Source of the DNA: an uncultured Chryseobacterium sp.
GTDB lineage: Bacteria; Bacteroidota; Bacteroidia; Palsa-965
DNA: 46,693 nt
Assembly (NCBI GenBank): GCA_964394965.1
Contig: CAYMZV010000002.1
Span: forward strand, 1-46,693
Direction of reading: 5' to 3'
Shown here: piece by piece, positions 1,465-31,273 of the stretch
Layout: the number at the start of each line of letters is the position of its first letter
Position numbering within the stretch: position 1 is the stretch's first letter
Made by a program: the position numbers and the translations under genes
Notes under the pieces: model-generated
The model's input: only the letters and a program-made list of their open reading frames with translations
Database searches by the model: none
Told to the model about the DNA's origin: nothing

Positions 1465-1533
1465 CAAAGGTGAGCCGCCGGTCATCCCAAACTGTTACAG
1501 AACTCTTGCGATTAGTTACATCATTCACACATT
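1465..1533 (-). promoter_or_regulatory. Composite stress-regulon promoter element, copy a (drives the gene at 1..1427)
   Basis: In gene orientation: AATGTGTGAATGATGTAACTAATCGCAAGAGTTCTGTAACA, 20 nt, CACCTTTG. The box lies 38 nt from the ATG at 1427. Confidence 0.65.
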
Positions 1534-1621
1534 AGGCTTTCAATGAAAAAGCATTTCCATACCCAAATGAAAACGCTTTTGTCCGATCCGGAATATCGGG
1601 TTGTCTTACAAACCAACCTCC

Positions 1622-2383
1622 TTATTGTGCCAAAAATCCCCCATCGATTTCCATTGCGGTTCCTGTCATGAACGAACTGTCATCGCAAGCGAGAAAAATA
1701 AATGCTGCTGCAATCTCTTCCGATTTGCCCAAACGTTTCATCGGATGCATTGCAACAATCTGCTGCTTGACATCCGCATGAACGTCAAAACCACCCTTGG
1801 TAAGCAAGGGCGTGTCGATGAATGCCGGACAAATTGCATTGATGCGTATCCCGTCGGCAGCGTATTCCAACGCAGCCGTTTGTGTGAGTCCGATCACGCC
1901 GTGTTTTGCCGCAACGTAATGCGATGAAGTGGCGAATCCCACTTTACCCAAAATGGAAGACATATTTATGATCACTCCCCTTTTCTGTTTCAGCATCTGT
2001 GTCAACTCATGTTTCATGCCATTGAATACACCGTTCAAGTTCACACCAATCACTTTCAGCCACGCCTGTTCGCCCATATCACCCACTTTATCGGGTTCGC
2101 CTCCAATGCCGGCATTGTTAAGTGCTACATCAAGCGTTCCGAATGCACTTACCGTTTTTTGAATTGCATTTTCCACTTGTGCAAAAACAGACACGTCGCA
2201 TTCCAAAAAAATCGCGTTCGGGTTTTCATTGCGTATTTCCTGCATTGCCTGATCGACAGTATCGGATTTCATATCTGCTACTGCAACATTGGCTCCTTCT
2301 TTTGCCGCTGCCATTGCACATGCCTTGCCAATACCCGACAATCCTCCAGTGATAAACACCGTTTTGTTTTCCAGCTTTTTCAT
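1622..2383 (-). CDS. Short-chain dehydrogenase/reductase (SDR) family oxidoreductase
   Basis: Track ORF 1622..2434 trimmed to the Met at 2383 just before the Rossmann motif KTVFITGGLSGIGKA. NNAG and the catalytic YVAAKHG (YxxxK) are present. Trimming removes the overlap with the upstream stop at 2397. Confidence 0.85.
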   Translation of the reverse strand: MKKLENKTVFITGGLSGIGKACAMAAAKEGANVAVADMKSDTVDQAMQEIRNENPNAIFLECDVSVFAQVENAIQKTVSAFGTLDVALNNAGIGGEPDKVGDMGEQAWLKVIGVNLNGVFNGMKHELTQMLKQKRGVIINMSSILGKVGFATSSHYVAAKHGVIGLTQTAALEYAADGIRINAICPAFIDTPLLTKGGFDVHADVKQQIVAMHPMKRLGKSEEIAAAFIFLACDDSSFMTGTAMEIDGGFLAQ

Positions 2384-2396
2384 TTTGTGTCGATTT

Positions 2397-3509
2397 TCAT
2401 TTTTGAAAAATTCCATTTCCTGATTTTTCTTCAACAGTCCCGTCCTTGTAATAAATAAATCTCAAGCCTTCATAATCCGCACTCACTTCCTGACCCAACG
2501 CATTTGTCACTCGCACCATTTGCCGAACAACAATCGTATTGTCAATGACAATGATGTCGAATGTGTGGGATTGTCCATTATAATCGGTTTGTTTCAATCG
2601 GTAATAATTCACTGTTTTGTCAAAACCATAATCTGCGAAGGAATAATCATTCGGTTGCGAACTCGTTCCCGCTCCGTTGACTCTTGCGACCTGCGTGAAA
2701 TTTTCCCCGTCGGTTGCTCTTTCCAAGGTGAAATAATCATTATTCGTTTCGGTGGCAGTGGACCACGACAATAGATTGTAAGCATGTTTATCCGATCCAT
2801 TGAAAAACAATAATTCAATCGGTAAAACAATTTGGGAAGGTGAACAGGATAACGAGGCTGTCATTGTAGAAATGTTTATGGCCCCTCCAATGGAAAGTCC
2901 CCTTCCTTCAAGTGTTGAGCCATCCAATAAGTTGAGTGCGCCATTGGCAATTACCGTTCCCTGGAAAACAGAACTGTCGCCCAAATCGAATTCCCCATTC
3001 ACTTGCCAATACACATTGCACATGGAAGCGGAATTGATCAGGATCACATTCGACAATGAGTTTGCAGCCAAAGCGCCGTTGATCTTGAAAATGAATAACG
3101 CATTGGGATCACCTTGGGCATCCAATGTCAAATCGCCATTCAATGATGAAGCTCCCATGCAATAAACATTGGGAGAAAGGATCTGGTTGTTTCCCAATAC
3201 AACTCCTATAACGGTATCACAAGTGATTGCATTCATAAAACTGTAAGCGGAATCCGCATCCGATGCCGCTTGCAATGAAACGGAATCCGTCAAATGGGTT
3301 TGTCCGTTTATTGTTCCGGGAGGAAATCCGGTGAATGCCCCTGCATTTGTACCGATATCACCTGTGGCAACTGTCGCTCCAACATTCGTGAATGCACCGA
3401 CTGCCGTAAACAGGACAAAAGACGATGCCGCCCCCAAATTGGGCGACTGTCCGAAATTCATTTTGGGGAAGAGAACAAATACGAGAATAAATAGCGACTT
3501 ACCTTTCAC
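2397..3509 (-). CDS. Ice-binding-like protein (single DUF3494 domain) with a C-terminal beta-sandwich domain
   Basis: LGAASSFVLFTAVGAFTNVGATVATGDIGTNAGAFTGFPPGTINGQTH, NVYWQVNG and GRGLSIGGAINI match the DUF3494 ice-binding fold signature. The C-terminus carries LPIELLFFNG...NNDYFTLERATDGENF...YYRLKQTDYNGQ. The track start ATG 3548 is only 3 nt from the -7-like box (3551..3558), so it lies upstream of the expected TSS. GTG 3509 gives a signal peptide MKGKSLFILVFVLFPKMNFGQ. The start is inferred. Confidence 0.75.
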   Translation of the reverse strand: MKGKSLFILVFVLFPKMNFGQSPNLGAASSFVLFTAVGAFTNVGATVATGDIGTNAGAFTGFPPGTINGQTHLTDSVSLQAASDADSAYSFMNAITCDTVIGVVLGNNQILSPNVYCMGASSLNGDLTLDAQGDPNALFIFKINGALAANSLSNVILINSASMCNVYWQVNGEFDLGDSSVFQGTVIANGALNLLDGSTLEGRGLSIGGAINISTMTASLSCSPSQIVLPIELLFFNGSDKHAYNLLSWSTATETNNDYFTLERATDGENFTQVARVNGAGTSSQPNDYSFADYGFDKTVNYYRLKQTDYNGQSHTFDIIVIDNTIVVRQMVRVTNALGQEVSADYEGLRFIYYKDGTVEEKSGNGIFQK

Positions 3510-3550
3510 TCCCGTACAATTTATATTGCGAATGAATATCCACAACACAA

Positions 3551-3618
3551 CAAAGGTGAGTCCTTAAGAATGGCAATTGTTACAGAACTCTTTCAATTAC
3601 TTACATCATTCACACATT
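3551..3618 (-). promoter_or_regulatory. Composite stress-regulon promoter element, copy b (drives 2397..3509 plus the SDR)
   Basis: AATGTGTGAATGATGTAAGTAATTGAAAGAGTTCTGTAACA, 19 nt, CACCTTTG. Confidence 0.65.
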
Positions 3619-3690: not shown

Positions 3691-4083
3691 TCAGCCAGGA
3701 ACTGTTTGTATTTCCTTTTCCGGTGTTATACATTTCTTCATCATTTCCAACAATGTATCCAATTCAAAAGGTTTGGTGATGTAATCGGCAGCACCCGACT
3801 TCAAAGCATTCGCCTTATCATTCTTTTCGGAAAGTGAACTGCTGAAAATAAAAGGTATGGAGGAAATCTTGGCTGTGTGCAAGAGCAACTGCAACACTTC
3901 ATGACCATCCATCTCACGCATTATTATATCACATATTATCAGGTCAGGCATAAATTCAGTGGCGAGTTCAATTCCCTTTTTCCCGTTATCGGTTGCAAGA
4001 ATCCTATAGCCTTCCATTTCAAGGTACTCGGTCAGGTTATCGAGAATTTCAGGATTGTCCTCGATCAATAAAATTGTTTCCAT
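3691..4083 (-). CDS. Stand-alone response-regulator receiver (CheY-like)
   Basis: ILLIEDNPE, DLIICDIIMREMDG (acceptor Asp) and ADYITKPF are present. There is no output domain. It is the last gene of the long operon that starts at 10573. Confidence 0.85.
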   Translation of the reverse strand: METILLIEDNPEILDNLTEYLEMEGYRILATDNGKKGIELATEFMPDLIICDIIMREMDGHEVLQLLLHTAKISSIPFIFSSSLSEKNDKANALKSGAADYITKPFELDTLLEMMKKCITPEKEIQTVPG

Positions 4084-4130: not shown

Positions 4131-5618
4131 TTATTTAACATGCACCATTGCCTTTTCGTCAATATCAATTCCCAATCCCTTTGCAACCGCCATTCCCAAC
4201 TGAACATCAACACGGAAAAAATGGCACAATTGCCTATTGATGATTTCATTTTTTTTCTCACCGCCAATCCCACCCATCGCATTCACAATATTGCTTGCCA
4301 GATTTTTCCTGTCTTGTGCATTCATCGCATCCCGATACAACGCTCCGGGCTGTGAGTAATGATCGTTGTCATTTTCATTGCGGTCAAACCAATCGGCTGT
4401 CACCGATTCCAATTGCATGGGTGATTCCCTATAATTCTCGTCCACAACAATATCATCAAAACTGTTCGGACGGTAATTCACAGTCGATTCCCCATTATCA
4501 CCCACCTGCATGAATCCGTCACGCTGGTAATTTGCAACTGCGTATGGGCACCTGTTCACAGGAATGTTTTCATAATTCACACCCAATCGATAACGGTGTG
4601 CATCGGGATAGGAAAGCAAACGTCCCTGCAACATCTTATCCGGTGAATAACCGATGCCATCAACAACTGCTGCCGGAGCGAAAGCGGATTGCTCGACATC
4701 ACGGAAATAATTCTTCGGGATTTCGTTCAGCTCCATGGTGCCAACAGCGATCAATGGAAAATCCTTGTGAGACCAAACCTTGGTAACGTCGAACGGATTC
4801 CACTTGAAATTTTTCGCCTGTTCATCCGTCATCACTTGAATTGACAGTGTCCATTTGGGGAAATCTTTTCTTTCAATCGCTTCCACCATGTCGCGTTGCG
4901 AATGATCGAGATCAACACTTTTCATTTCAATCGCTTCCTTGTCGGTGAAATTTTTCACTCCTTGCAATGTCTTGAAATGGAATTTCATCCATACCCGTTC
5001 ATTGTTTTTATTGTACATGGAAAAAGTGTGACTGCCGAAACCATTCATGTAACGGTAGGAAAACGGGGTTCCGCGGTCACTCATCAAAATCATTACCTGA
5101 TGAAGGCTTTCCGGATTCAAACTGAAAAAATCCCAAACAGCTGTTGGATTCTTACAATTCGTTTTGGGATCACGCTTTTGTGTGTGAATGAAATGGGAGA
5201 ATTTTTTTGCATCCTTGACAAAAAACACGGGTGTATTGTTCCCGACCAAATCCCAATTGCCATCTTCGGTATAGAATTTAAGCGCAAATCCGCGGGGATC
5301 CCTCTCGGAATCGGCGCTTCCCTTTTCGCCCGCCACCAAAGAGAAACGCGCAAACATTCTTGTCTGTTTGCCGATCTCGGAAAACAATTTCGCCTTTGTG
5401 TATTGCGTAATGTCATGCGTCACCGTAAAAGTTCCGAATGCTCCCGTTCCTTTTGCATGAACAACACGTTCAGGAATTCGTTCGCGGTTGAAATGTGCCA
5501 AGTCTTCGTGCAGAAAATAATCCTGCAATAAAATCGGTCCACGATTGCCAACCGTCATTGAGTTTTCGAATTCGCAATAGGGTCTGCCGCTTGCTGTGGT
5601 TAATTTTCTCTTTTTCAT
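4131..5618 (-). CDS. Monofunctional heme catalase (small-subunit type, 495 aa)
   Basis: FNRERIPERVVHAKGTGAFG, RDPRGFALKFYT, VGNNTPVFF and RLLSYPDAHRYRLG are canonical catalase signatures. Confidence 0.95.
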   Translation of the reverse strand: MKKRKLTTASGRPYCEFENSMTVGNRGPILLQDYFLHEDLAHFNRERIPERVVHAKGTGAFGTFTVTHDITQYTKAKLFSEIGKQTRMFARFSLVAGEKGSADSERDPRGFALKFYTEDGNWDLVGNNTPVFFVKDAKKFSHFIHTQKRDPKTNCKNPTAVWDFFSLNPESLHQVMILMSDRGTPFSYRYMNGFGSHTFSMYNKNNERVWMKFHFKTLQGVKNFTDKEAIEMKSVDLDHSQRDMVEAIERKDFPKWTLSIQVMTDEQAKNFKWNPFDVTKVWSHKDFPLIAVGTMELNEIPKNYFRDVEQSAFAPAAVVDGIGYSPDKMLQGRLLSYPDAHRYRLGVNYENIPVNRCPYAVANYQRDGFMQVGDNGESTVNYRPNSFDDIVVDENYRESPMQLESVTADWFDRNENDNDHYSQPGALYRDAMNAQDRKNLASNIVNAMGGIGGEKKNEIINRQLCHFFRVDVQLGMAVAKGLGIDIDEKAMVHVK

Positions 5619-6465: not shown

Positions 6466-6990
6466 TTATTTAAGCAACGAAGGATTGAGCATTTCAACTA
6501 CAATCACTCCGCCAACAAGCAGGGTGACGCAGACCAGGAATCCGACCGCCATATACTTGTATCTTTTCGCATCTTTCTTCGCTTCCATCATCTTGAACAG
6601 GTTGAACAATGAAAAATTTATTTTCCTGAATTTTGTTTCTGTCTTGACAACATAGTCGGAAGCGCCGTGCTTGAATGATTTCAGTGCAATGTCAATGTTG
6701 TCTTCACTGGTCAGCATGATGACATTGGTATCATGACTTTCCTTTTTGATCAGATCCAAAACCTTGATGCCATTCATCGCATCCGGATTTATACTATTGA
6801 GATTATAGTCAAGGATAACCACTTGGGGCTTGTCTTCCGCATATTTCTTCATGCAACTCTCTCCCGTTTCAAACGAATGGATCTTGATGGGCATTTTTGC
6901 AAAAGCCGTTTCGATATCGGCCTTCAGCGCAAGTTGAAATACCTTATTGTCTTCAACAATGAAAATATTTATCTGGTTCTTCGAGTTCAT
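6466..6990 (-). CDS. Receiver domain protein with a C-terminal transmembrane anchor
   Basis: IFIVEDNKVF, VVILDYNLNS (acceptor Asp), MLTSEDN and GASDYVVK form a REC domain. A hydrophobic helix YMAVGFLVCVTLLVGGVIVVEML follows at the C-terminus. Confidence 0.8.
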   Translation of the reverse strand: MNSKNQINIFIVEDNKVFQLALKADIETAFAKMPIKIHSFETGESCMKKYAEDKPQVVILDYNLNSINPDAMNGIKVLDLIKKESHDTNVIMLTSEDNIDIALKSFKHGASDYVVKTETKFRKINFSLFNLFKMMEAKKDAKRYKYMAVGFLVCVTLLVGGVIVVEMLNPSLLK

Positions 6991-7032: not shown

Positions 7033-7503
7033 TCATTCGAGTAAATTCATTGTATTGATGTATTGCTCCACTTTACTGAAGGCCTGTTCATCCTTTCGCA
7101 AATAGGTGCAACCATATTCCGCAAGCGCCTTTACAAAAACATTCAATTCGGTTTGGGCGCTCAGCAAAATGATATTCGTATTGGCTTTCATCGACTTTAT
7201 TTTTTTTATGATCGACAATCCGGTAGCGGCATCACCTAGGTTCGTATTCAACAAATGATCCATGATGATGACAATCGGATTCCGGTGCAATTCCATCAAG
7301 CAGGTTTCCCCAACGGAAAATATCTTTATTTCAACCCGCGGAAAACGAATGCTCAAAAAACCTTTCAAGGACTTTGCATATACTTCATTGTCTTCCACAA
7401 TAAATATTATTTTTTTAGGTGACGCGATATTCTTGAAAAATCGGGTGAGCATATTCACTTTCCTGACAGGGTTTTGAAACTTAGGCACAGTTGAGTTTTT
7501 CAT
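7033..7503 (-). CDS. Stand-alone receiver domain protein
   Basis: KIIFIVEDNEVYAKSL, VIIMDHLL and ILLSAQTE are present. The start is uncertain: ATG 7503 overlaps the Hpt gene by 23 nt, while Met 7452 is the alternative. Confidence 0.7.
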   Translation of the reverse strand: MKNSTVPKFQNPVRKVNMLTRFFKNIASPKKIIFIVEDNEVYAKSLKGFLSIRFPRVEIKIFSVGETCLMELHRNPIVIIMDHLLNTNLGDAATGLSIIKKIKSMKANTNIILLSAQTELNVFVKALAEYGCTYLRKDEQAFSKVEQYINTMNLLE

Positions 7504-7849
7504 TTTCTATTTCCCGGACAGCCTGCTTGCATATCAAAACAAGTTGCCCGTTCAGTTCCTTTATCTTTTCAATGTTTACCCCTGCGGTTCCAAGATTTTC
7601 CATTTCCTGCAAAATGGGAGTGAGCACGGAAATACCCATAATGGAAACGGATGACCGCATGGTGTGGGAAAATTTCTTGATGATCAAAAAATCCGTCCTT
7701 TCTATCGCATCCTTGATGGATTTGAGTTCTTCCTGGATCTGTTCGAGGAAAGCATCCATGATTTCCCTGATCAACAGTTTTTTTCCGCCCATCATCTCGT
7801 TGAGATAATTCAGGTCACACACATTTTGAATATTATTTTCGATTGGCAT
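7481..7849 (-). CDS. Hpt (histidine phosphotransfer) domain protein
   Basis: 122-aa helical protein with an Hpt-type motif FSHTMRSSVSIMGI, lying between a hybrid kinase and receivers. Confidence 0.75.
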   Translation of the reverse strand: MPIENNIQNVCDLNYLNEMMGGKKLLIREIMDAFLEQIQEELKSIKDAIERTDFLIIKKFSHTMRSSVSIMGISVLTPILQEMENLGTAGVNIEKIKELNGQLVLICKQAVREIENEKLNCA

Positions 7850-22303: not shown

Positions 22304-22325
22304 TCTTTCTTTTCAGGATTATTTT

Positions 22326-22904: not shown

Positions 22905-22987
22905 GGGACGTTTTTATTTATTTAATGATTCGGCCTTGAATGATATTTTCATGACCCGATTTTTTCAGTGAATGAATTTTCACAGGC

Positions 22988-23084: not shown

Positions 23085-24230
23085 CTAATGCGGTTTTGAC
23101 CCATGCGATTGTGATCGCGGCTGCGGTGATTGTTTGGGTTGCGATTGTGGTCTTGATTGCGGCTGCGACTGCGGCGGTTGTTGTGCTGGTTGTTGTGGAG
23201 TTGGTTCTTGTTTAGGTTGTGGTTGTTGCTGCGGTTGCGCTGATGGCTGTTGCTTTGGTTTAGGTTGTTGTGGAGTTGGTTGCTGTTTAGGTTGCGGTTG
23301 TGGATTTTTCTGCTGAGGCTGGCTGACCGGAACAGGTTCCTTTTTCTGTTGTGTCTGTGGTTTATTCTGTTGTGGCGATTGTGCCGGTGGATTTGCCTTG
23401 TTCGCTTGCGGTTTGGCGGTTTGATTGGGCGCTTCCGCTTTTTTCTGTTCAACGGTTTTCACATCTTTCGCATCGACCACTTTTGCCGGTGCCGGCTTCG
23501 TTCCAGCTGCATCATTTTTTTGAACTTGCGGTTTGTATATTTCAAGTTGGTTATTGTTCATTTTCTGTTCATGCGTGGCGCTTTCCTTGACGACAACAGG
23601 TGTGATCGTTTTTCCCATGTGTTTTTCCACTTCTGTTTTATCGGGACCGCCATTATAATTTACATGTGTTGAATTGTCCGTGCGTGGATTATTGATAACC
23701 GTTGATTTGTTAATGATCGTTGTATTGGTCGTCGTATTGACATAATAATTATTGATGGTCGTACTTCCAAAATGATTGTTGTCCACAAATCTCCAATCCT
23801 CGTCGCGATGATGATACGAACCCGGTCCCATTGCACACCATCCATAATATCCATCCGAAACTCTCCAATCCACCCAGCCCGGTCCCCACTCATTGTCGGG
23901 AACCCAAATCGGTCCATACATTGCATCGTAGTACCATCTTCCATAATGGAAAGGCGCCCATCCCCATGCATAATCGGAAACCCACGTCCATCCGTAATCG
24001 GTATAGACCCAATAACCGTTTGTTGCATAAGGTGAAAATCCGGGACCTGCATCCGGGACCCAAACATATCCGTAAGTTGGATTGTTCATCCACGTACCAT
24101 AGGGACTCAAGTCATCATAGAAAACCTGAAAACTCACTGACCCTCCCTGTGCTCTCGCTTGAGGCGGCGCCATCCATGAAAAGAAATCGATGATCATGAA
24201 TAGGGCAACTATTTTAGCTGGGATTTTCAT
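23085..24230 (-). CDS. Secreted W/Y/G-rich repeat protein (YxWGxW-type) with a long P/Q-rich tail
   Basis: Signal peptide, then YGYVWVPDAGPGFSPYATNGYWVYTDYGWTWVSDYAWGWAPFHYGRWYYD. The C-terminal ~130 aa are low complexity (PQQNKPQTQQKKEP...PQPKQQPTPQQPKPKQQ). Confidence 0.7.
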   Translation of the reverse strand: MKIPAKIVALFMIIDFFSWMAPPQARAQGGSVSFQVFYDDLSPYGTWMNNPTYGYVWVPDAGPGFSPYATNGYWVYTDYGWTWVSDYAWGWAPFHYGRWYYDAMYGPIWVPDNEWGPGWVDWRVSDGYYGWCAMGPGSYHHRDEDWRFVDNNHFGSTTINNYYVNTTTNTTIINKSTVINNPRTDNSTHVNYNGGPDKTEVEKHMGKTITPVVVKESATHEQKMNNNQLEIYKPQVQKNDAAGTKPAPAKVVDAKDVKTVEQKKAEAPNQTAKPQANKANPPAQSPQQNKPQTQQKKEPVPVSQPQQKNPQPQPKQQPTPQQPKPKQQPSAQPQQQPQPKQEPTPQQPAQQPPQSQPQSRPQSQPKQSPQPRSQSHGSKPH

Positions 24231-26031: not shown

Positions 26032-26217
26032 TCAGAGTGCTGCAATGATTGCGAGCAATTCCTCTTTTGTCTTGCCAAGTTTAATTTGGATTTTAGCGAG
26101 CATTTCCTCTTTCTTGCCTTCGGCAAATAAAAGATCATTGTCGGTGAGGAATGCGAATTTTTGTTTCAACTTTCCTTTCGCCTCATTCCAGCTTCCTTTC
26201 AATTCATTCGTGTTCAT
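26032..26217 (-). CDS. CsbD-family general stress protein
   Basis: ELKGSWNEAKGKLKQKFAFLTDNDLLFAEGKKEEMLAKIQIKLGKTKEE is the typical CsbD sequence. Confidence 0.85.
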   Translation of the reverse strand: MNTNELKGSWNEAKGKLKQKFAFLTDNDLLFAEGKKEEMLAKIQIKLGKTKEELLAIIAAL

Positions 26218-26254: not shown

Positions 26255-26323
26255 CAAAGATGACCTACTGAAGCCTGGAATGTGTTACATGATTTATTGA
26301 TTCTGTTACATCATTCACACATT
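26255..26323 (-). promoter_or_regulatory. Composite stress-regulon promoter element, copy j
   Basis: AATGTGTGAATGATGTAACAGAATCAATAAATCATGTAACA, 20 nt, CATCTTTG. Confidence 0.6.
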
Positions 26324-26749
26324 CTATTTTTGCGAAATCAATTTGCCCGATTGGATTGTTTTATGGTTGCTGATGATGGCATAGAAATAAATACCTGAAG
26401 GAAGGCTTCCTGTTTCTATCGGTGTTGTCGTGTTGAGCAAGGCAATGGCCATCAGCTCTTCGCCCAACAGGTTGTAAATTTTCAATTGCGAATTGGTATT
26501 CAGCAGACCCGCATCATTTATTCTGATGGAGACAATCGATTCGAATGGGTTCGGGTAAATTGTAGCGGCGACCCCATCGATGGCGATGTTTTCAATTGGA
26601 TTTGAAATCCCAACGTTGTTTATTGTCCTGTTGAACTGGAAAGGGGAAATATCCGATATGCTTTCGAGTGTTGGAGCCTGTGCAAAATCCAATCTCGGGA
26701 ACATGAAAAATGTCATTACGGCAAAAGTCAATTTCAATTCCCTTTTCAT
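26324..26749 (-). CDS. Small secreted protein with a T9SS type-A C-terminal sorting domain
   Basis: Signal peptide, then ATIYPNPFESIVSIRIND...LKIYNLLGEELM...LPSGIYFYAIISNHKTIQSGKLISQK. Confidence 0.75.
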   Translation of the reverse strand: MKRELKLTFAVMTFFMFPRLDFAQAPTLESISDISPFQFNRTINNVGISNPIENIAIDGVAATIYPNPFESIVSIRINDAGLLNTNSQLKIYNLLGEELMAIALLNTTTPIETGSLPSGIYFYAIISNHKTIQSGKLISQK

Positions 26750-26788
26750 CGTGTTTCAATTCGATTGCGAATTCGTTTCCGCAACAGC

Positions 26789-26857
26789 CAAAGGTGGCCA
26801 GACTTGAAAAGGGAATTGTTACACCATTCCGGGAATCAGTTGCATGATTCACACTTG
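26789..26857 (-). promoter_or_regulatory. Composite stress-regulon promoter element, copy k
   Basis: CAAGTGTGAATCATGCAACTGATTCCCGGAATGGTGTAACA, 20 nt, CACCTTTG. Confidence 0.6.
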
Positions 26858-26936: not shown

Positions 26937-27734
26937 TCAATCCTGATGCTTCTGTTTTTTTGGGGTTTCATTGTTTCCCTCATTCGTCTCGAAATTGCAA
27001 ATGAATGTTGTCAATTCCTTTGTCAGTGTATCGAGTGCTATTGCAGATTGTTTTATATAATCCGTCAGCTTTTTCAGTTTTTCCGGAGAGTCGATTGCCT
27101 GTTCCATCAGATTCGACAAGCCTAAAATATGGGTAATCGGTTGCCTTACGCGATGTGAGATCATGAACAGCATTTTTTCCAATCCCTGAACATGTTCATC
27201 CAAAAACATTTTTGTTTTTTGCAACTCGTCATTGGAAACGATCAACTCTGCAGCACGTTTTTCTTTCTCCCTGTTTTGAAAAACCAATTCTTCATTGGCA
27301 ATGACCAATTCGGCTGCGCGTTTTTCCTTCTCCCCATTTTGAAATAAAAGTTCACTGTTGGCAACGATCAATTCAGCGGCGCGTTTTTCCTTTTCTTCAT
27401 TCTGAAATACGAGCTCCCTGTTGGCAACGATCAATTCGGCTGCGCGTTTTTCCTTCTCCCCGTTTTGAAACGCAAGCTCTTCGTTGGCAATGACCAATTC
27501 CGCTGCACGTTTTTCCTTCTCCGTGTTTTGAAACGCAAGTTCCTCGTTGGCAATGGCCAATTCCGCGGCACGTTTTTCCTTCTCCCCGTTTTGAAAAGAA
27601 AGTTTCTTGTAGGCTATGACCAATTCAGCAGCACGTTCCTCATTCTCCTTGTTCTGAAAAAAAAGCGCCCTTACGGCAGCGATTAATTCTTCTGATCGGT
27701 GAATATTATTATCGGCAATAGGCGGAGTTTGCAT
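26937..27734 (-). CDS. Coiled-coil (seven 21-aa repeats) protein ending in a DHp-like domain, with no ATPase domain
   Basis: AAELVIANEELAFQNGEKEKR repeats are followed by LFMISHRVRQPITHILGLSNLMEQA. ATG 27734 lies 4 nt from the weak -7-like box, suggesting a leaderless mRNA like its paralog. Confidence 0.75.
   Translation of the reverse strand: MQTPPIADNNIHRSEELIAAVRALFFQNKENEERAAELVIAYKKLSFQNGEKEKRAAELAIANEELAFQNTEKEKRAAELVIANEELAFQNGEKEKRAAELIVANRELVFQNEEKEKRAAELIVANSELLFQNGEKEKRAAELVIANEELVFQNREKEKRAAELIVSNDELQKTKMFLDEHVQGLEKMLFMISHRVRQPITHILGLSNLMEQAIDSPEKLKKLTDYIKQSAIALDTLTKELTTFICNFETNEGNNETPKKQKHQD
27219..27695. repeat. About 7.5 tandem 63-bp (21-aa) coding repeats
   Basis: AAELxxANxELxFQNxEKEKR periodicity, equal to three heptads. 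Confidence 0.85.
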
Positions 27735-27737
27735 ACT

Positions 27738-27806
27738 GTAAGTTTACTCACTTTAAACATTCAATTGATACATAATTCGTGAGATAACTTGCATAATTCA
27801 CACATT
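27738..27806 (-). promoter_or_regulatory. Composite stress-regulon promoter element, copy l (weak -7 box)
   Basis: AATGTGTGAATTATGCAAGTTATCTCACGAATTATGTATCA, 20 nt, AAACTTAC. Confidence 0.5.
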
Positions 27807-27826: not shown

Positions 27827-28258
27827 TTACATCCTATCCATATACCAACTCAATTCCTTTTCCATTCTTTTATAGCGGAAAATGGTGGTGACGATTTTTT
27901 GCAGCCGCATGAAAGCGGTTTCGCTTTTCACGACATAATCAAATGCACGATGATGCATGCAATTGATCGCAACATCGATTTTATCCTGCGAGGATAACAT
28001 GACAACCGGAATATCGGGGTTGAATGCCTTTATCTTATCCAATGTTTCCATTCCATTCATCGCATTCTTATCCATTCCATCGAGATGATAATCCAGAATG
28101 ATGACATCGGGATTGTGCGACAGATCCTTCATGCAAAGTTCGCCGGTTGCAAAAGTCTCAATTATAAAATCCGCATGTTCGAGAAATTCAATCTCCAATG
28201 ATTTTAAAAACACAGCATCATCGTCCACCAAAAAAAGCCTTATTTTCTCGTTTTTCAT
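27827..28258 (-). CDS. Stand-alone receiver domain protein
   Basis: RLFLVDDDAVFLKSLEIEF, VIILDYHLDG, VVMLSSQDK and FDYVVK are present. The start overlaps the kinase stop. Confidence 0.85.
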   Translation of the reverse strand: MKNEKIRLFLVDDDAVFLKSLEIEFLEHADFIIETFATGELCMKDLSHNPDVIILDYHLDGMDKNAMNGMETLDKIKAFNPDIPVVMLSSQDKIDVAINCMHHRAFDYVVKSETAFMRLQKIVTTIFRYKRMEKELSWYMDRM

Positions 28259-30606
28259 TGCTTCGTATTTTTAATCCGTTGAAACTCTTCTTCCAATTCT
28301 TCGCAGGCCTGTACACAGATATTTTCAAGTTGTACAATCAAGTCATTCATTCCACCGGCCTCCTGCTGCGCACTTGCAAATTGCTGGACTTTTTTTGCCA
28401 TGCTCTCATAATCCGAACTGATGCCCATGATTGAAAAGGAAGGAATCATTTTGTGTATGGTGGTGTGCAATGAATCCCAATCCTTATTGTGAAAACTCTG
28501 CTTCATCGAAAGGATCAATGGAGGAGTCTGCTCGAGATAACAGGAAATCATTTCCATCATCAATGCCGGATTTGATTTTGTGCGTTGAATCAAATAACTC
28601 AAATCAACGCTTCTTGATTTTTTATCCGGAAGATTTCCAATCACGTTGTCATTGTACTTTATCGATACGGGTTTCTTCACCAACCCGACAATCTTATTGT
28701 ACAGAACTTTTTCGTCGACAGGTTTCGCGATATAATCATTCATGCCAACCGATCTGCATTTTGCCAGATCGACGGTGGTGACATCAGCTGTCAATGCAAT
28801 GATTGGGATTTTCGAATTCATTGTATTGCGGATATATTGCGTCGCCTCGAATCCATTCATCTCCGGCATTTGCAAATCCATCAGGATGATATCGTACGAT
28901 TTCATTTGCAGTTTTTCTATGGCAATTTTCCCATTGGCGGCAATGTCGCGTTCAAATCCGAAATCGTCGAGCAGTGTTTTCATCAGCAATTGGTTGAGCG
29001 CAATGTCTTCCACCACCAACACCTTGATATTCTTCATTTCAGTATCGGCTTCGGCGGTTTCCGTCTCAAACTCCGCTTTCACTTTTGTCTTTTGAAAAGT
29101 CAATATGAAACTGAATGTGGATCCCTCGTTGATTTTGCTTTGCACCTGAACATTTCCGCCTTGCGATTCAACCAATTGTTTTACAATGGCAAGTCCCAGT
29201 CCCGTTCCACCATACAGGCGTGATGTGCCACTGGTAGCCTGCTGGAAATTCTCAAAGATGTTTTCGATTTTACTTTCACTGATGCCGATTCCGGTATCCG
29301 TAACGGCAAATTCTATTATCACCTTGTCCTCTTCTTCCTCCAACAAACGGACACTTACGGTAATTTTCCCTTCCGTTGTGAATTTCACGGCGTTGCTTAC
29401 CAAATTCAGGATGATTTGATGCAAGCGCACCGGATCACCCACCAACACATCCGGAATCCTGTTGTCATATTCCTTGACGAGTACCAGGTTTTTTTCCTGG
29501 ATTTTCGTTTCAAACAGATGAAGCATCGACGATATGGACGCTGACATCTTGAATGGTGTTTGTTCAAATGTCATCTTTCCGGCATCCACTTTTGCCAAAT
29601 CGAGAATGTCGTTGATCAATACGATCAATGCATCACCGCTCATTTTTATGGCGGTCAAATATTCCTTTTGTTTCGCCGACAATTCCGTTTTCAAAACCAC
29701 TTTTGTAAATCCGATGATCGCATTCATTGGCGTCCGGATTTCATGGCTCATGTTGGAAAGGAATTGTTGTTTTGCCTTTACGGCATCTTCAGCAATGCGT
29801 GTTGCACTTTCCGCTTTTATTTTTGCCTCTTCGGCGATTGCAGTCGCCAATTCCGCAAACACTTTTGCTTCCGTCAATTCCTTTTCATTCCTTTTCTGTT
29901 CGGTGATGTCCCTTGCAACAACCACAACTCCCAGCACATTTCCCTGTTCATCCTTGTAAACCGAACCGTTGAATAAAACATCGGTCAATTTATGATCCCT
30001 TATTGTCAACGGATAATCCGTAACAAATCCTTTTGCAAAAGCTTCCTGATAACCTTTCCGCGCTTTTTCCGGCTCGGTGAAATAATCGAAAAAATCCGTA
30101 CCGATTGATTTTTCGCGCGCCACACCGGTTATGTTTACGGACGCATTATTCATGTCCGTTATTTTTCCTGCAGGATTGATTGTGAAAAGCGGATCAAGAC
30201 TTGCCTCAATAAGACTGCGCGCATAATTGGCAACCCTCAACTCCGCCGCGCGTTTTTGCTTTTCATTGTTTTGAAACGCAAGTTCCTTGTTGGCAATGAT
30301 CAATTCGGCTGCACGTTTTCCCTTTTCCTCATTTTGAAATAAAAGTTCCTTGTTCGCAATCACCAATTCATCGGCACGTTTTTCCTTCTCCTCATTTTGA
30401 AATAAAAGTTCCTTGTTCGCAATCACCAACTCATCGGCGCGTTTTCCCTTTTCCACATTCTGGAATGCGAGTTCCTTGTTGGCAATGATCAATTCGGCCG
30501 CACGCTTTTCCTTCTCTTCGTTTTGAAAAGCAAGTTCCTTGTTGGCATCATCCAACTCATTTGATTTTTTCCTTTTAGCCATTTTCGGTTGTGATGCTGT
30601 TTTCAT
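28255..30606 (-). CDS. Hybrid sensor histidine kinase (21-aa coiled-coil repeats, PAS, HisKA, HATPase, REC, Hpt)
   Basis: About five ANKELAFQNEEKEKRAAELII repeats are followed by PAS LIEASLDPLFTINPAGKITDMN. Also present are FLSNMSHEIRTPMNAIIGF, GGTGLGLAIVKQLVESQGG, REC VLVVEDIALN...DIILMDLQMPEMNG and an Hpt-like HKMIPSFSIMGI. Confidence 0.9.
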   Translation of the reverse strand: MKTASQPKMAKRKKSNELDDANKELAFQNEEKEKRAAELIIANKELAFQNVEKGKRADELVIANKELLFQNEEKEKRADELVIANKELLFQNEEKGKRAAELIIANKELAFQNNEKQKRAAELRVANYARSLIEASLDPLFTINPAGKITDMNNASVNITGVAREKSIGTDFFDYFTEPEKARKGYQEAFAKGFVTDYPLTIRDHKLTDVLFNGSVYKDEQGNVLGVVVVARDITEQKRNEKELTEAKVFAELATAIAEEAKIKAESATRIAEDAVKAKQQFLSNMSHEIRTPMNAIIGFTKVVLKTELSAKQKEYLTAIKMSGDALIVLINDILDLAKVDAGKMTFEQTPFKMSASISSMLHLFETKIQEKNLVLVKEYDNRIPDVLVGDPVRLHQIILNLVSNAVKFTTEGKITVSVRLLEEEEDKVIIEFAVTDTGIGISESKIENIFENFQQATSGTSRLYGGTGLGLAIVKQLVESQGGNVQVQSKINEGSTFSFILTFQKTKVKAEFETETAEADTEMKNIKVLVVEDIALNQLLMKTLLDDFGFERDIAANGKIAIEKLQMKSYDIILMDLQMPEMNGFEATQYIRNTMNSKIPIIALTADVTTVDLAKCRSVGMNDYIAKPVDEKVLYNKIVGLVKKPVSIKYNDNVIGNLPDKKSRSVDLSYLIQRTKSNPALMMEMISCYLEQTPPLILSMKQSFHNKDWDSLHTTIHKMIPSFSIMGISSDYESMAKKVQQFASAQQEAGGMNDLIVQLENICVQACEELEEEFQRIKNTKQ
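30226..30561. repeat. Five tandem 63-bp (21-aa) coding repeats
   Basis: Same repeat family as 27219..27695 and 11681..11962. Confidence 0.85.
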
Positions 30607-30614
30607 TTTGCCAT

Positions 30615-31181
30615 TTAATTTCCCACTTCCTCGATGGGGCTTCTCCTCTTGTCTTTCAATTGCTTGAAATGCGAAGGTGAAAGTCCGGTCACTTTCTTGA
30701 ATTGATTCGATAAATGTGCGACGCTGCTGTAATTCATTTTCCAGGCGATTTCGGTAATGTTCAATTCGCCGTAAATGATCAATTCCTTTATGCGTTCGAT
30801 TTTATGGGAGATGATGAATTGTTCAATGGTGGTTCCCTGCACTTCGGAAAACAGATTCGCGAGATAGGTGTAATCGTGATTCATTTTTTCACTGAGGAAA
30901 TCGGAAAAATTCATTTTGATCATTTCATCGCTGTGATGCACCATTTGCACGATCACATTTTTTATTTTTTCAATCAGCATGGCCCTTTTGTCGTCCATCA
31001 ATTCAAGACCCGCTTCCAACAGACCCGCTTTCACCTGTTCGCGCTGTTCGGCTGAAATGTTTTCCATGATTTCAACTTCACCCAAATCCACCACCATGAA
31101 ATGAAGTCCGAGTTCTTTCAACACTTCTTTCACCACAATTTTGCAGCGGGCGCTCACCATGTATTTGATGTATAATTTCAA
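30615..31181 (-). CDS. AraC-family transcriptional regulator with a small N-terminal domain
   Basis: The C-terminus has two HTH units (YTYLANLFSEVQGTTIEQFIISHKIERIKELI and ITEIAWKMNYSSVAHLSNQFKKVTG). The track start 31313 would run through the promoter motif. TTG 31181 (MKLYIKYMVSARCKIVV) or ATG 31160 are the plausible starts. Confidence 0.75.
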   Translation of the reverse strand: MKLYIKYMVSARCKIVVKEVLKELGLHFMVVDLGEVEIMENISAEQREQVKAGLLEAGLELMDDKRAMLIEKIKNVIVQMVHHSDEMIKMNFSDFLSEKMNHDYTYLANLFSEVQGTTIEQFIISHKIERIKELIIYGELNITEIAWKMNYSSVAHLSNQFKKVTGLSPSHFKQLKDKRRSPIEEVGN

Positions 31182-31204
31182 ATGCTTTTTTTTGACAGGA
31201 TTGA

Positions 31205-31273
31205 TAAAGGTGATTCTATTCGGATCGATAAACGTTACACAACTCTTGAAAAGAGTTACACAATTCACACTTT
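31205..31273 (-). promoter_or_regulatory. Composite stress-regulon promoter element, copy m (drives the AraC, kinase and receiver genes)
   Basis: AAAGTGTGAATTGTGTAACTCTTTTCAAGAGTTGTGTAACG, 20 nt, CACCTTTA. Confidence 0.6.

What the first reader, a model, noticed from the sequence alone, without database searches (positions are those of the whole stretch)
1465..31273. Thirteen copies of a 69-bp composite promoter element tie most of the window into one candidate stress regulon
**Motif.** In gene orientation each copy reads nnnr-TGTGAAT-NN-TRYAAC-N10-AGTT-NN-GTAACA. The TGTGAAT heptamer is invariant in 13 of 13 copies.

**Spacing.** In 12 copies an 8-mer of the form CAnnTTTG follows after exactly 20 nt, or 19 nt in copy b. 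CACCTTTG occurs four times; the others are CACATTTG, CAAATTTG, CAGTTTTG, CATCTTTG, GACCTTTG, CACCTTTA, CAACTTTA and AAACTTTA.

**Positions.** The copies lie at 1465..1533, 3551..3618, 10637..10705, 12036..12104, 12492..12560, 13535..13603, 13614..13682 (plus strand), 17989..18057, 22988..23056, 26255..26323, 26789..26857, 27738..27806 and 31205..31273. Every copy is intergenic. Every copy points at the adjacent gene, and the single plus-strand copy precedes the single plus-strand gene of the region.

**Relation to known promoters.** The 8-mer resembles the Bacteroidota -7 element TAnnTTTG, but C consistently replaces the first T. A -33 TTG is often missing. The motif therefore occupies roughly -33 to -73. 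That fits either a class II activator site or an alternative sigma factor.

**Internal structure.** It contains a direct repeat TGTAAC-N15-TGTAAC (two helical turns) and a central dyad AACT-N10-AGTT.

**Downstream genes.** They are two ice-binding-like proteins, the PAS/kinase/catalase operon, CsbD, the Dps/Mla/AI-2E operon, YihY, DUF1003, a His-rich mini-protein, the PSD/aminotransferase/cyanophycinase operon, receivers, and the AraC/kinase operon. I know of no described general stress regulon with this architecture in Bacteroidota.
Basis: partly seen in the sequence, partly recalled or inferred. Interest (0 to 1): 0.88.

Follow-up and report, generated by a model that had tools for sequence, protein, structure and literature searches.

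The report
Phylum-wide activator-dependent stress promoter module
The 13 repeats are real: each is the upstream half of a promoter that occurs in almost the same form across the whole phylum Bacteroidota, sits in front of envelope and stress-protection genes, and is probably switched on by one unusually conserved AraC-type regulator, a control circuit I could not find described anywhere.

Summary
The window holds exactly 13 copies of AATG-TGTGAAT-nA-TGTAAC-N10-ARTT-nT-GTAACA. Each is followed 20 nt later by a sigma-A "-7 box" (yAnCTTTG). All are intergenic and point at the next gene.

The element is not local. A strict 37-nt pattern hit at least 120 genome loci (about 0.3 expected by chance). 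All are in Bacteroidota, Ignavibacteria or Chlorobiales. In these loci the -7 box, which the pattern did not select, keeps the same spacing (T61 in 135 of 137). Start codons lie a median of 105 nt from the motif start.

The first downstream genes recur: ice-binding-like, OmpA, CsbD, glycine-zipper, MlaE, BON, DUF6600 and receiver proteins. One 188-aa AraC-family gene also recurs.

That AraC protein is 82-93% identical across orders. It has an HMA-like N-domain and invariant recognition helices. It usually heads an AraC / hybrid kinase / receiver operon. It often carries the motif at its own promoter, and paralogs end inside the motif.

The site is two ~15-bp direct repeats 21 bp apart that abut the missing -33 element. 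This is the geometry predicted for AraC-type domains in Bacteroides.

Best reading: class II activator-dependent promoters of a phylum-wide protective regulon. The regulator's identity and the inducing signal are inferred, not shown. I found no prior description.

The parts
1465..1533 (-). Copy a: upstream motif plus -7 box CACCTTTG. Drives ice-binding-like protein 1 (3..1427, runs off the window).
   Evidence: 57.2 bits
3551..3618 (-). Copy b: motif plus CACCTTTG at 19-nt spacing. Drives ice-binding-like protein 2 (2397..~3509) and a short-chain dehydrogenase (1622..2434).
10637..10705 (-). Copy c. Drives a 9-gene operon: PASx3 (9347..10573), hybrid kinase (7854..9335), Hpt (7481..7849), receivers (7033..7503, 6466..6990), two unknowns, catalase (4131..5618) and a receiver (3691..4083).
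12036..12104 (-). Copy d. The ATG at 12031 lies 5 nt after the box, so the mRNA is predicted to be leaderless. Drives a 203-aa coiled-coil repeat protein (11420..12031) and DUF1003 (10854..11423).
12492..12560 (-). Copy e. Drives an 84-aa His-rich protein (12196..12450).
13535..13603 (-). Copy f. Drives a YihY/BrkB membrane protein (12602..13501). It stands back-to-back with copy g.
13614..13682 (+). Copy g, the only plus-strand copy. Drives a single-domain receiver (13711..14175), a paralog of the receiver at 27827..28258.
17989..18057 (-). Copy h. Drives PS decarboxylase (16783..17928), an unknown protein, an aminotransferase and an S51 peptidase (14178..15044).
22988..23056 (-). Copy i. Drives a 192-aa exported protein, an AI-2E permease, DUF2061, Dps, MlaE, MlaF and MlaD (18161..22904).
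26255..26323 (-). Copy j. Drives CsbD (26032..26217) and possibly the small genes down to DUF6600 (23085..24230).
26789..26857 (-). Copy k. Drives a 141-aa protein with a T9SS C-terminal sorting domain (26324..26749).
27738..27806 (-). Copy l, the weakest copy: TGCAAG, GTATCA and a poor box AAACTTAC. The ATG lies 4 nt after the box position. Drives a 265-aa protein with 22-aa repeats and a HisKA domain only (26937..27734).
   Evidence: (48.5 bits)
31205..31273 (-). Copy m. Drives the AraC / hybrid kinase / receiver operon, a candidate positive autoregulation loop.
30615..31181 (-). Candidate activator: a 188-aa protein with an HMA-like N-domain (residues 1-62) and an AraC/XylS DNA-binding domain (residues ~73-176). 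It has a conserved TTG start.
28255..30606 (-). Hybrid PAS-HisKA-HATPase-receiver kinase. It is co-operonic with the AraC gene in 23 of 29 related loci that have enough downstream sequence.
27827..28258 (-). 143-aa single-domain receiver, 70-89% identical across the phylum. It is the last gene of the conserved operon.
12469..12484 (-). +1 element GTGAAAATTCATTCAC, a 5-bp stem with a 6-nt loop at the predicted 5' end of the transcript. Further copies lie at 22968..22983, 3528..3543, 26765..26784 and 1444..1460.

Best explanation
Each copy is the upstream half of an activator-dependent sigma-A promoter.

**Layout.**
- The housekeeping sigma factor of Bacteroidota reads the -7 box (yAnCTTTG, here at -12 to -5).
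- The usual -33 TTG is missing.
- In its place, from about -74 to -34, lies a bipartite site made of two ~15-bp units in direct repeat, 21 bp (two helical turns) apart. The distal unit is TGTGAAT-nA-TGTAAC and the proximal unit is a-ARTT-nT-GTAACA. The proximal unit abuts the -33 position.

**Proposed mechanism (inferred).**
- Two head-to-tail protomers of an AraC/XylS-type activator bind this site and recruit RNA polymerase in the class II manner. The weak core promoter (C instead of T at the first box position, no -33) keeps the genes off without the activator.
- The activator is most likely the 188-aa HMA-fold/AraC protein at 30615..31181. In some lineages a close paralog may take part.
- This protein often activates its own operon, which also encodes a PAS hybrid histidine kinase and a single-domain receiver.
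- I infer that this phosphorelay sets the regulator's activity, perhaps by the receiver binding the HMA-like domain.

**Output.** The regulon is a protective, mostly envelope-directed set conserved across Bacteroidota: ice-binding-like secreted proteins, OmpA-like proteins, CsbD, glycine-zipper and BON proteins, the Mla lipid transporter, Dps and catalase, and YihY. It also includes many of its own signalling proteins.

**Status of each step.**
- Shown here: the existence, architecture, orientation, conservation and gene associations of the element.
- Inferred: the transcription start, the activation mode, the regulator's identity and the signal.
For: **The element is sharply defined and phylum-wide.**
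- The window has 13 sites at 44-57 bits and nothing else above 12 bits.
I estimate about 0.3 by chance from information content and a 596-Gb collection. All are in Bacteroidota orders, Ignavibacteria or Chlorobiales.

**It is a promoter.**
- Unselected positions are conserved in 137 instances: AATG at -4..-1, CTT at 37-39 and nAnCTTTG at 57-64, with T61 in 135 of 137 and T62 in 136 of 137.
- A second set of 131 sites, ascertained through the AraC protein, shows T61 in 130 of 131.
- In the F. psychrophilum TSS map the sigma-A box spans -12 to -5 (PMC9723704).
- All 4 long ORFs that start within 12 nt of the box start exactly 5 nt after it, which fits leaderless mRNAs.
- Orientation and intergenic location are as described above.

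**It defines a regulon.** Among 150 first downstream genes, the recurrent families are Ice_binding 13, OmpA 12, AraC 6, MlaE 5, CsbD 5, Gly-zipper 5, receiver 4, DUF5670 4, PAS 3 and BON 2.

**AraC is the candidate regulator.**
- It is the only DNA-binding family among the recurrent downstream genes.
- All 120 homologs listed (the best of 8,000 scored) are 82-93% identical, and they include Flavobacterium and Ferruginibacter proteins. Both recognition helices are invariant in the 32 sequences aligned.
- 39 of 73 orthologs found through the protein alone carry a strong motif 85-105 nt upstream (two at 197 nt). Several more carry degenerate copies.
- Those loci hold 127 motifs in 636 kb, 117 of them co-oriented with the AraC gene.
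- In 8 motif-ascertained loci a 45-71% identical paralog ends ...(E/D)NV-TGA, with its stop codon inside TGTGAAT.
- The AraC/kinase/receiver operon is conserved in 23 of 29 loci.

**The geometry fits AraC-type domains.** Comparative genomics predicts that AraC-type domains of Bacteroides hybrid two-component systems bind direct repeats with a mean spacing of 21 bp (PMC3878776).

**The protein's structure.** The model shows a beta-alpha-beta-beta-alpha-beta N-domain (pLDDT 86-92). It resembles Atx1, GolB and HAH1 with TM 0.64-0.71 (Foldseek E-values only 0.1-0.3). The C-terminal domain resembles the AraC, SoxS and MarA DNA-binding domains.
Against: - No binding, expression or TSS data exist for this element. 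Every functional step is inferred.
- 34 of 73 AraC orthologs lack a strong motif at their own promoter. Autoregulation is therefore common but not universal.
- Any conserved regulon member could show the same adjacency.
- The two half-sites share only the 3' part (ARTnnTGTAAC). The distal TGTGAAT has no proximal counterpart, so a second protein may be involved.
- LytTR-type regulators, which I recall as abundant in this phylum, also use direct repeats with a ~21-bp period next to the -35.
- The AraC protein has no receiver domain, so its link to the phosphorelay is guesswork.
- I could not test whether genomes that have the motif always have the AraC gene.
- The look-alike locus in F. psychrophilum was silent under classical stresses. 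This argues against a classical general stress trigger, although I did not verify orthology or motif presence there.
Confidence: 0.6

Rival explanations
1. The site belongs to a different transcription factor encoded elsewhere. Candidates are a LytTR-type response regulator (9-bp direct repeats with a ~21-bp period next to the -35) or a Crp/Fnr-type protein (TGTGA half-site). On this view the AraC gene is only a conserved regulon member.
For: - The 21-bp direct-repeat geometry next to the -35 also fits LytTR regulators such as AgrA and ComE (my own knowledge).
- TGTGA resembles a CRP half-site.
- 34 of 73 AraC orthologs lack a strong motif upstream.
- The window encodes many receivers whose outputs are unknown.
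Against: - No LytTR or Crp gene was detected among the window proteins scanned or among the recurrent downstream genes.
- The known Bacteroides Crp-like regulator BT4338 binds a different palindrome, TATGTTnTAnAACATA (PMC6989115).
- The motif is not a palindrome.
- AraC-subfamily genes abut the motif in at least 15 of 120 motif-ascertained loci.
- Conservation of the AraC protein parallels that of the site.
Confidence: 0.2
2. The motif is the promoter of an alternative (ECF-like) sigma factor. TGTAAC would act as a -35 element, as in the B. subtilis sigma-X/sigma-M consensus, and the downstream TGTAACA or the CAnCTTTG box would act as the -10.
For: - TGTAAC and TGCAAC match ECF -35 consensus sequences (my own knowledge).
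- TGTAAC-N15-TGTAAC is close to ECF spacing.
- The first box base is often C, unlike the canonical TAnnTTTG.
Against: - Position 30 is T in 130 of 131 sites and C in only one, so no CGT-type -10 is present.
- The most conserved downstream element is a sigma-A-type nAnnTTTG at sigma-A spacing.
- The leaderless ATGs and the +1 element are phased to that box, not to the TGTAACA.
- No sigma factor gene occurs in the window's motif-linked operons or among the 25 most frequent downstream families, although ECF sigmas usually autoregulate.
Confidence: 0.07
3. The site is an operator for a repressor rather than an activator site. The genes would be expressed by default and shut off by the bound protein.
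For: - AraC-family proteins and others can repress.
- The look-alike locus in F. psychrophilum is silent in all tested conditions.
- A second TGTGAA-containing inverted repeat overlaps +1 in about 15% of promoters.
Against: - The site lies upstream of and abutting the -33 position, not over the -7 box or +1.
- The core promoter lacks a -33 TTG and has a suboptimal first box base. This is typical of promoters that need activation.
Confidence: 0.05
4. The copies are a dispersed mobile or REP/MITE-like repeat with no promoter function.
For: There are many near-identical copies within a 30-kb stretch.
Against: - Only 5 of 109 copies lie inside ORFs of at least 120 aa, although 82% of bases do.
- The orientation bias is strict: 91 of 96 point at a gene start, against 21 of 96 in the mirrored direction.
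- Distance to the start codon is fixed.
- There are no terminal inverted repeats or target duplications.
- Only functional positions are conserved, while the spacers vary.
- Rfam gives no match.
Confidence: 0.01

Closest known systems
XylS/AraC/RhaS-type class II activation (Pm, araBAD, rhaBAD promoters)
   Same: - Two ~15-17-bp direct-repeat half-sites with a 21-bp period.
- The proximal half-site abuts or overlaps the -35 region, and the core promoter is weak.
- The candidate regulator has the two-HTH AraC domain.
- The regulator is often autoregulated.
   Different: - The N-terminal domain is a 62-aa HMA-like fold, not a cupin or ligand-binding dimerisation domain.
- The promoter is of the Bacteroidota -33/-7 type.
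- The target is a large protective regulon rather than a catabolic operon.
- The gene is coupled to a phosphorelay operon.
- Binding has not been demonstrated.
Bacteroides hybrid two-component systems (HTCS) with AraC-type output domains
   Same: - Same phylum.
- The predicted sites are direct repeats with a mean 21-bp spacing, bound by two protomers on one face of the DNA (PMC3878776).
- Kinase, receiver and AraC HTH act together.
   Different: - Here the kinase, the receiver and the AraC protein are three separate cytoplasmic proteins.
- There is no periplasmic sugar sensor.
- The targets are not polysaccharide utilisation loci.
- The regulator is about 85% identical across orders, whereas HTCS diversify as paralogs.
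MarA/SoxS/Rob stress regulons
   Same: - Small AraC-family activators.
- Asymmetric, orientation-dependent sites at class I or class II positions.
- They control a multi-operon stress regulon.
   Different: - The marbox is a single 20-bp site bound by a monomer. Here the site is a 41-bp bipartite repeat.
- The control logic differs: SoxR and MarR in those systems, a phosphorelay here.
General stress responses run by alternative sigma factors (sigma-B, sigma-S, EcfG-NepR-PhyR)
   Same: - The output overlaps: CsbD, Dps, catalase, BON/OsmY-like and glycine-zipper proteins.
- As in the alphaproteobacterial PhyR system, PAS kinases and receivers sit at the top and are themselves in the regulon.
   Different: - No alternative sigma factor is involved. 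The housekeeping sigma factor plus an activator is proposed instead.
- The inducing conditions are unknown, and may not be the classical ones.
LytTR (AgrA/ComE-type) promoters
   Same: Direct repeats with a ~21-bp period immediately upstream of the -35, and strong positive autoregulation.
   Different: - No LytTR gene is associated with the motif.
- The repeat units here are longer and differ in sequence.

Membership tests
Bacteroidota sigma-A (-33/-7) promoter | A -7 box TAnnTTTG at a fixed place upstream of the transcription start | tested here: met
   nAnCTTTG occupies positions 57-64 in 137 and in 131 independent sites. A58, T61 and T62 are nearly invariant. The first base is C > T, so this is a variant box.
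Bacteroidota sigma-A (-33/-7) promoter | A -33 TTG about 19 nt upstream of the -7 box | tested here: not met
   Positions 35-37 read C-A-C as part of GTAACA. Only a weak CTT follows at 37-39. This fits a promoter that depends on an activator.
Bacteroidota sigma-A (-33/-7) promoter | Transcription starts about 5 nt after the box | not testable with these tools
   Indirect support only. All 4 of 4 immediate ATG-ORFs start exactly 5 nt after the box. The +1 stem-loop starts there in 31 of 44 cases. The F. psychrophilum TSS map reports only two low-confidence 5' ends in about 50 kb around the look-alike locus.
AraC/XylS-family transcription factor (protein 30615..31181) | A C-terminal ~100-aa domain with two helix-turn-helix motifs | tested here: met
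   Pfam HTH_18 at 4e-16 and HTH_AraC. PDB hits to AraC-type domains. The model has seven helices and resembles AraC, SoxS and MarA.
AraC/XylS-type binding site | Two direct-repeat half-sites with a ~21-bp period, the proximal one next to the -35 region | tested here: met
   TGTAAC occurs at +9 and +30, and ART at +4..6 and +25..27. The same geometry is predicted for Bacteroides AraC-type domains.
AraC/XylS-type binding site | The site is physically bound by the AraC protein | not testable with these tools
   Needs EMSA, DAP-seq or ChIP-seq.
HMA (heavy-metal-associated) domain | A beta-alpha-beta-beta-alpha-beta fold | tested here: met
   The model gives E2-6, H11-23, E28-32, E35-38, H44-56 and a short strand at 60-61, with pLDDT 86-92. 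Atx1, GolB and HAH1 match with TM 0.64-0.71 and rmsd 2.4-2.7 A, but with weak E-values of 0.1-0.3.
HMA (heavy-metal-associated) domain | The metal-binding MxCxxC loop | tested here: not met
   The loop reads M-V-S-x-R-C. Ser is invariant in place of the first Cys in 32 sequences. The protein is therefore not filed as a metal-binding HMA domain.
ECF sigma promoter | A -35 element containing AAC and a -10 element of CGT type, 16-17 nt apart | tested here: not met
   GTAAC is present, but the base at the expected C of the -10 is T in 130 of 131 sites. No sigma gene occurs in the window's motif-linked operons or among the 25 most frequent downstream families.
REP/MITE-type dispersed repeat | Copies in both orientations, inside genes at background rate, with terminal repeats | tested here: not met
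   5 of 109 copies lie inside ORFs against 82% coverage. 91 of 96 point at a gene start, against 21 of 96 mirrored.
Known RNA family (Rfam 15) | A match at the gathering threshold | tested here: not met
   0 matches in the window.
Crp-like BT4338/Cur regulon of Bacteroides | The 22-bp palindrome wwwTATGTTnTAnAACATAwww | tested here: not met
   The motif is a direct repeat with a different sequence.

The most novel reading that the evidence does not exclude
This may be the master switch of a protective or dormancy programme shared by Bacteroidota, Ignavibacteriota and Chlorobiota. These lineages are not known (to me) to have a sigma-S, sigma-B or EcfG-type general stress sigma factor.

On this reading:
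- A near-invariant HMA-fold AraC activator takes the role that alternative sigma factors play elsewhere.
- It is controlled by a PAS hybrid kinase and a single-domain receiver, possibly by partner binding to the HMA-like domain.
- It is bistable through positive autoregulation.
- It responds to a non-classical cue such as freezing, desiccation or light.
- A second tier, a 5'-terminal mRNA stem-loop, marks the effector genes.
Probability: 0.3. Interest if true: 0.9.

Novelty: new variant of a known kind. Interest (0 to 1): 0.78.

Why it matters
Bacteroidota are major members of soil, water, marine and gut communities. How they mount a global protective response is, to my knowledge, unknown, and the classical stress sigma factors have not been reported for them.

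This finding supplies three concrete things:
- a 41-bp cis-element that predicts regulon membership in any genome of the phylum;
- a single candidate regulator, with its kinase and receiver, to knock out;
- cultured hosts in which to do it (F. sandaracinum; F. limicola, F. urumqiense and F. xinjiangense).

It would assign a shared regulatory context to many proteins of unknown function: DUF6600, DUF5670, DUF1003, the secreted ice-binding-like proteins and the His-rich mini-proteins.

It may also explain why a ~50-kb block of F. psychrophilum stayed silent in 64 transcriptome samples.

Finally, it offers a tight, inducible promoter/regulator pair for a phylum with few genetic tools.

Tried and rejected
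- **Rfam, whole window at gathering threshold:** no match. The element is not a known RNA.
- **Literature:** ten full-text searches covered the motif strings, general stress response in Bacteroidetes/Bacteroidota, AraC with hybrid kinase, and CsbD with Flavobacterium. None described this element or regulon. One hit with TGTAAC was a set of CRISPR repeats.
- **Crp-like BT4338/Cur as the factor:** rejected, because its site is a different palindrome.
- **NCBIfam:** no equivalog for the AraC protein, the receiver or the unknown proteins.
- **Co-variation of regulator and site:** AraC clades that lack a strong motif at their own promoter still have identical recognition helices. Two of the seven loci of the one such clade I rescanned hold strong copies about 1 kb upstream, and one holds weaker copies. 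The test was therefore uninformative.
- **Experimental TSS evidence from F. psychrophilum:** the supplementary TSS table reports only two low-confidence 5' ends in about 50 kb around the look-alike locus. It gave expression context but no TSS.
- **Tandem AraC paralogs as a general rule:** rejected. Only 2 of 54 protein-ascertained loci have a paralog just upstream, although 8 motif-ascertained loci have one ending inside the motif.
- **The +1 element as a strong RNA structure:** the fold is modest, -4.2 kcal/mol with z = -3 for one copy and weaker for the others. RNA hairpin versus DNA operator remains open.

Full report
**1.

The core TGTGAATNNTRYAAC occurs 10 times in the window against 0.01 expected. 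Reading all TGTGAAT sites in gene orientation recovers the 13 copies at the reported coordinates.

A weight matrix built from the 13 sites (positions -4 to +36 relative to the T of TGTGAAT) scores them 44-57 bits. No other position in 46.7 kb exceeds 12 bits, and shuffled sequence reaches at most 5.5 bits. The set is therefore discrete, not the tail of a distribution. All copies lie within 1465..31273. None lies in the T9SS/adhesin part of the window beyond 31.3 kb.

The 8-mer follows after 20 nt in 11 copies and after 19 nt in copy b. Copy l has only a degenerate box.

PorP/SprF, SprB and CHU_C domains place the organism in Bacteroidota.

**2. The element is conserved across a phylum**

A strict 37-nt pattern, which matches only 6 of the 13 window copies, was scanned against one genome per species. 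From its information content (about 42 bits) and 596 Gb of sequence, I expect about 0.3 hits by chance.

Every listed hit is from Bacteroidales, Chitinophagales, Flavobacteriales, Cytophagales, Sphingobacteriales, Saprospirales, Ignavibacteria or a Chlorobiales MAG.

In the 137 instances with enough flank, positions the pattern did not fix are conserved:
- AATG immediately upstream;
- T15, T18, A23 and T30;
- CTT at 37-39;
- a box nAnCTTTG at 57-64, with A58 in 121, T61 in 135, T62 in 136 and G64 in 92 of 137.

The first box base is C 60, T 42, G 22, A 13.

A second, independent set came from 80 metagenome loci retrieved through the AraC protein alone. It comprises 131 distinct sites scored only on positions -4 to +36, and it shows the same box (T61 in 130 of 131; first base C 61, T 26, A 24, G 20).

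**3. It is a promoter, not a mobile repeat**

- 171 of 181 instances are followed by a same-strand ORF. The start codon lies a median of 105 nt from the motif start (IQR 96-137).
- In the protein-ascertained loci, ORFs of at least 120 aa cover 82% of bases, yet only 5 of 109 motif centres lie inside one.
- In the same loci, 91 of 96 motifs have a gene start 66-330 nt downstream, against 21 of 96 in the mirrored direction.
- The TSS map of Flavobacterium psychrophilum places the sigma-A box TAnnTTTG at -12 to -5 (PMC9723704). Transferred here, transcription would start at about position 69, and the motif would span about -74 to -34.
- Two observations fit that phase. All four long ORFs whose ATG lies within 12 nt of the box start exactly 5 nt after it, as expected for leaderless mRNAs; window copy d is one of them. 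The +1 element of section 6 also starts there.
- A canonical -33 TTG would fall at positions 35-37, which are occupied by the invariant ...ACA of GTAACA.
- The core promoter is therefore incomplete, which is the usual signature of dependence on an activator.

**4. It defines a conserved regulon**

Pfam scans of 150 first downstream genes from other genomes give: Ice_binding 13, OmpA 12, Por_Secre_tail 7, AraC HTH 6, OMP beta-barrel 6, MlaE 5, CsbD 5, glycine-zipper 5, receiver 4, DUF5670 4, PAS 3, BON 2, DUF6600 2, Band_7 2 and patatin 2.

tblastn with the window's proteins finds the same families next to motifs elsewhere.

The content overlaps the sigma-B, sigma-S and EcfG regulons of other phyla (CsbD, Dps, catalase, BON/OsmY-like; my own knowledge). 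It has a strong envelope and secreted component.

**5. The most likely regulator**

*Anatomy of the site.* There are two units in direct repeat. TGTAAC occurs at +9 and +30, and A-R-T at +4..6 and +25..27. The period is thus 21 bp, and the proximal unit ends where the -33 element should be.

This is the arrangement known for XylS, AraC and related class II activators (my own knowledge). It is also the arrangement predicted by comparative genomics for the AraC-type domains of Bacteroides hybrid two-component systems, described as direct repeats with an average distance of 21 bp and monomers on the same side of the DNA (PMC3878776).

*Evidence pointing at the protein at 30615..31181.*
- It is the only DNA-binding protein found in the motif-linked operons of the window and the only DNA-binding family among the recurrent downstream genes.
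- Its conservation is exceptional for a transcription factor. All 120 homologs listed (the best of 8,000 scored) are 82-93% identical over the full length, and they include Flavobacterium and Ferruginibacter proteins. Both predicted recognition helices (HDYTYLANLFSE and YSSVAHLSNQFKK) are invariant in the 32 sequences aligned. This parallels the near-invariance of the DNA site.
- Of 73 orthologs retrieved through the protein alone, 39 carry a strong motif 85-105 nt upstream of the start (two at 197 nt). Several others carry degenerate copies or a copy one gene further up.
- Those loci hold 127 motif copies in 636 kb, 117 of them on the AraC strand.
- In 8 motif-ascertained loci a 45-71% identical paralog with near-identical second recognition helices ends ...(E/D)-N-V-stop, with its TGA inside TGTGAAT.
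- Counting the 7 loci where the motif precedes the ortholog, at least 15 of 120 motif-ascertained 8-kb loci have a member of this subfamily directly touching a motif.

*The protein itself.* It has a 62-residue beta-alpha-beta-beta-alpha-beta N-domain (pLDDT 86-92). This domain superposes on the copper chaperones Atx1, GolB and HAH1 (TM 0.64-0.71), though with weak Foldseek E-values of 0.1-0.3. Its metal loop is degenerate: MVSxRC, with an invariant Ser in place of the first Cys. A standard AraC DNA-binding domain follows. NCBIfam has no specific model for the protein.

*The operon.* In 23 of 29 loci with enough downstream sequence, the gene is followed by a PAS hybrid histidine kinase (about 72% identity) and a 143-aa single-domain receiver (about 78% identity). 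I infer that this phosphorelay controls the activator. How it does so is unknown, because the AraC protein has no receiver domain. Binding of the receiver to the HMA-like domain is a guess.

**6. A second, unreported layer**

In 44 of 230 distinct promoters, GTG starts 4-8 nt after the box, and in 31 of those exactly 4 nt after it. In 33 of the 44, the next bases form a perfect 5-bp inverted repeat, against 3.7 expected from shuffles. The loop is 6 nt in 31 of these 33. The consensus is GTGAA-AATnnn-TTCAC.

Variant arms include GTGAT/ATCAC (a compensatory change) and GTGGA/TTCAC (pairing only as G.U). These hint at an RNA stem at the exact 5' end of the transcript. The numbers are small, and the fold is weak (-4.2 kcal/mol).

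The element occurs on effector genes (ice-binding-like, CsbD, DUF6600). In the instances listed, it does not occur on the regulatory genes. Its right arm is the reverse complement of TGTGAA, the start of the distal heptamer, so a DNA operator for the same or another protein is equally possible.

**7. The 'stress' label**

Gene content supports a protective function. The only expression data I could link are indirect.

F. psychrophilum has an AraC gene of 179 aa, a hybrid kinase and a 144-aa receiver in the same order (THC0290_1150, _1152 and _1153). They are surrounded by genes annotated as ribonuclease BN (an old annotation for the YihY family, from my own knowledge), a transporting permease, an ABC permease/ATPase/membrane-protein trio that I read as Mla-like, UspA and a peptidoglycan-binding protein.

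All of these fall in the bottom expression quartile in all 64 samples of 32 conditions (Table S4). The conditions included growth phases, freshwater, peroxide, hypoxia, metal limitation, high osmolarity, mucus, plasma and blood.

The TSS table lists only two low-confidence 5' ends in about 50 kb there.

I could not retrieve that genome, so orthology and motif presence are unverified. If they hold:
- the regulon is co-silent under classical stresses;
- its trigger lies elsewhere;
- the silence would explain why this promoter class escaped a careful TSS-based motif search.

**8. Rivals**

- *A different factor with the same geometry.* A LytTR regulator cannot be excluded without binding data.
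- *Crp-like BT4338.* It binds a different palindrome.
- *An ECF-type sigma.* This is unlikely for three reasons. The expected C of a CGT -10 is a T in 130 of 131 sites. The conserved downstream box is of sigma-A type, and the leaderless starts are phased to it. No sigma gene occurs in the window's motif-linked operons or among the 25 most frequent downstream families.
- *A repressor operator.* This is disfavoured by the position of the site and the incomplete core promoter.
- *REP/MITE behaviour.* This is refuted.

**9. Novelty**

Ten full-text searches and the papers read found no description of the motif, the regulon or this AraC subfamily.

Mechanistically this is a familiar kind of thing, an AraC-type class II activator site. 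The scale (phylum-wide and near-invariant), the regulator architecture (HMA-like fold plus AraC, with a separate phosphorelay) and the role (a protective regulon run through the housekeeping sigma factor) make it a new variant of that kind.

Noticed in passing
window 12469..12484, 22968..22983, 3528..3543, 26765..26784, 1444..1460 (minus strand): A second conserved element, GTGAA-AATnnn-TTCAC, starts at the predicted +1. It is present in about 15% of these promoters across the phylum and mostly on effector genes. It could be a 5'-terminal mRNA stem-loop or an operator that shares the TGTGAA half-site with the upstream motif.
   Followed up: partly
L005, L019, L020, L026, L054, L063, L073, L085: Paralogs of the AraC regulator (45-71% identity, near-identical second recognition helix) end ...(E/D)NV-stop, with the TGA stop codon inside the TGTGAAT heptamer of a motif that drives the next gene. 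In L019, L063 and L073 the next gene is the AraC ortholog itself.
   Followed up: partly
window 30615..31181: The AraC gene uses a TTG start (TTGAAATTATACATC...) that recurs in the orthologs of L024, L063, L073, L079 and L103, while some metagenome orthologs use ATG or GTG. Several database entries and the F. psychrophilum annotation appear to start at the internal ATG 7 codons downstream.
   Followed up: partly
window 26937..27734 and 11420..12031: Two paralogous proteins carry tandem 22-aa repeats (EKEKRAAELVIANEELAFQN) followed by a HisKA-like dimerisation domain without an ATPase domain. Both have start codons at the predicted +1 (leaderless). They may be phosphotransfer or kinase-modulating proteins.
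   Followed up: no
window 13535..13682; L014 6271..6347: Two motif copies stand back-to-back and drive divergent genes, with the TGTGAAT heptamers 19 nt apart in the window and almost abutting in L014. The divergent arrangement is therefore recurrent.
   Followed up: no
F. psychrophilum LT670843.1, about 1.333-1.392 Mb (PMC9723704 Tables S2 and S4): A block of about 50-60 kb around an AraC / hybrid kinase / receiver operon is in the bottom expression quartile in all 64 samples and has almost no mapped transcription starts. Its annotated gene content resembles the window's regulon.
   Followed up: partly
window 42530..45965: A tandem array of 16 copies of a 213-bp unit (86% matches). Matching 70-aa reading frames on the minus strand suggest a large repetitive surface or adhesin-like gene. 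It carries no motif.
   Followed up: no
window 27827..28258 and 13711..14175: The conserved 143-aa receiver has a paralog in the window (154 aa) whose first ~120 residues are similar. The paralog is driven by its own motif copy on the opposite strand.
   Followed up: no
L154, L159, L169, L172, L174, L195, L198: One AraC clade shares a different conserved upstream sequence (TTTGATGAATTATCTTCnTnAGAGTCAT) instead of the motif at its own promoter. Two of these loci (L169, L174) have strong motif copies about 1 kb upstream, and L159 has weaker ones.
   Followed up: partly
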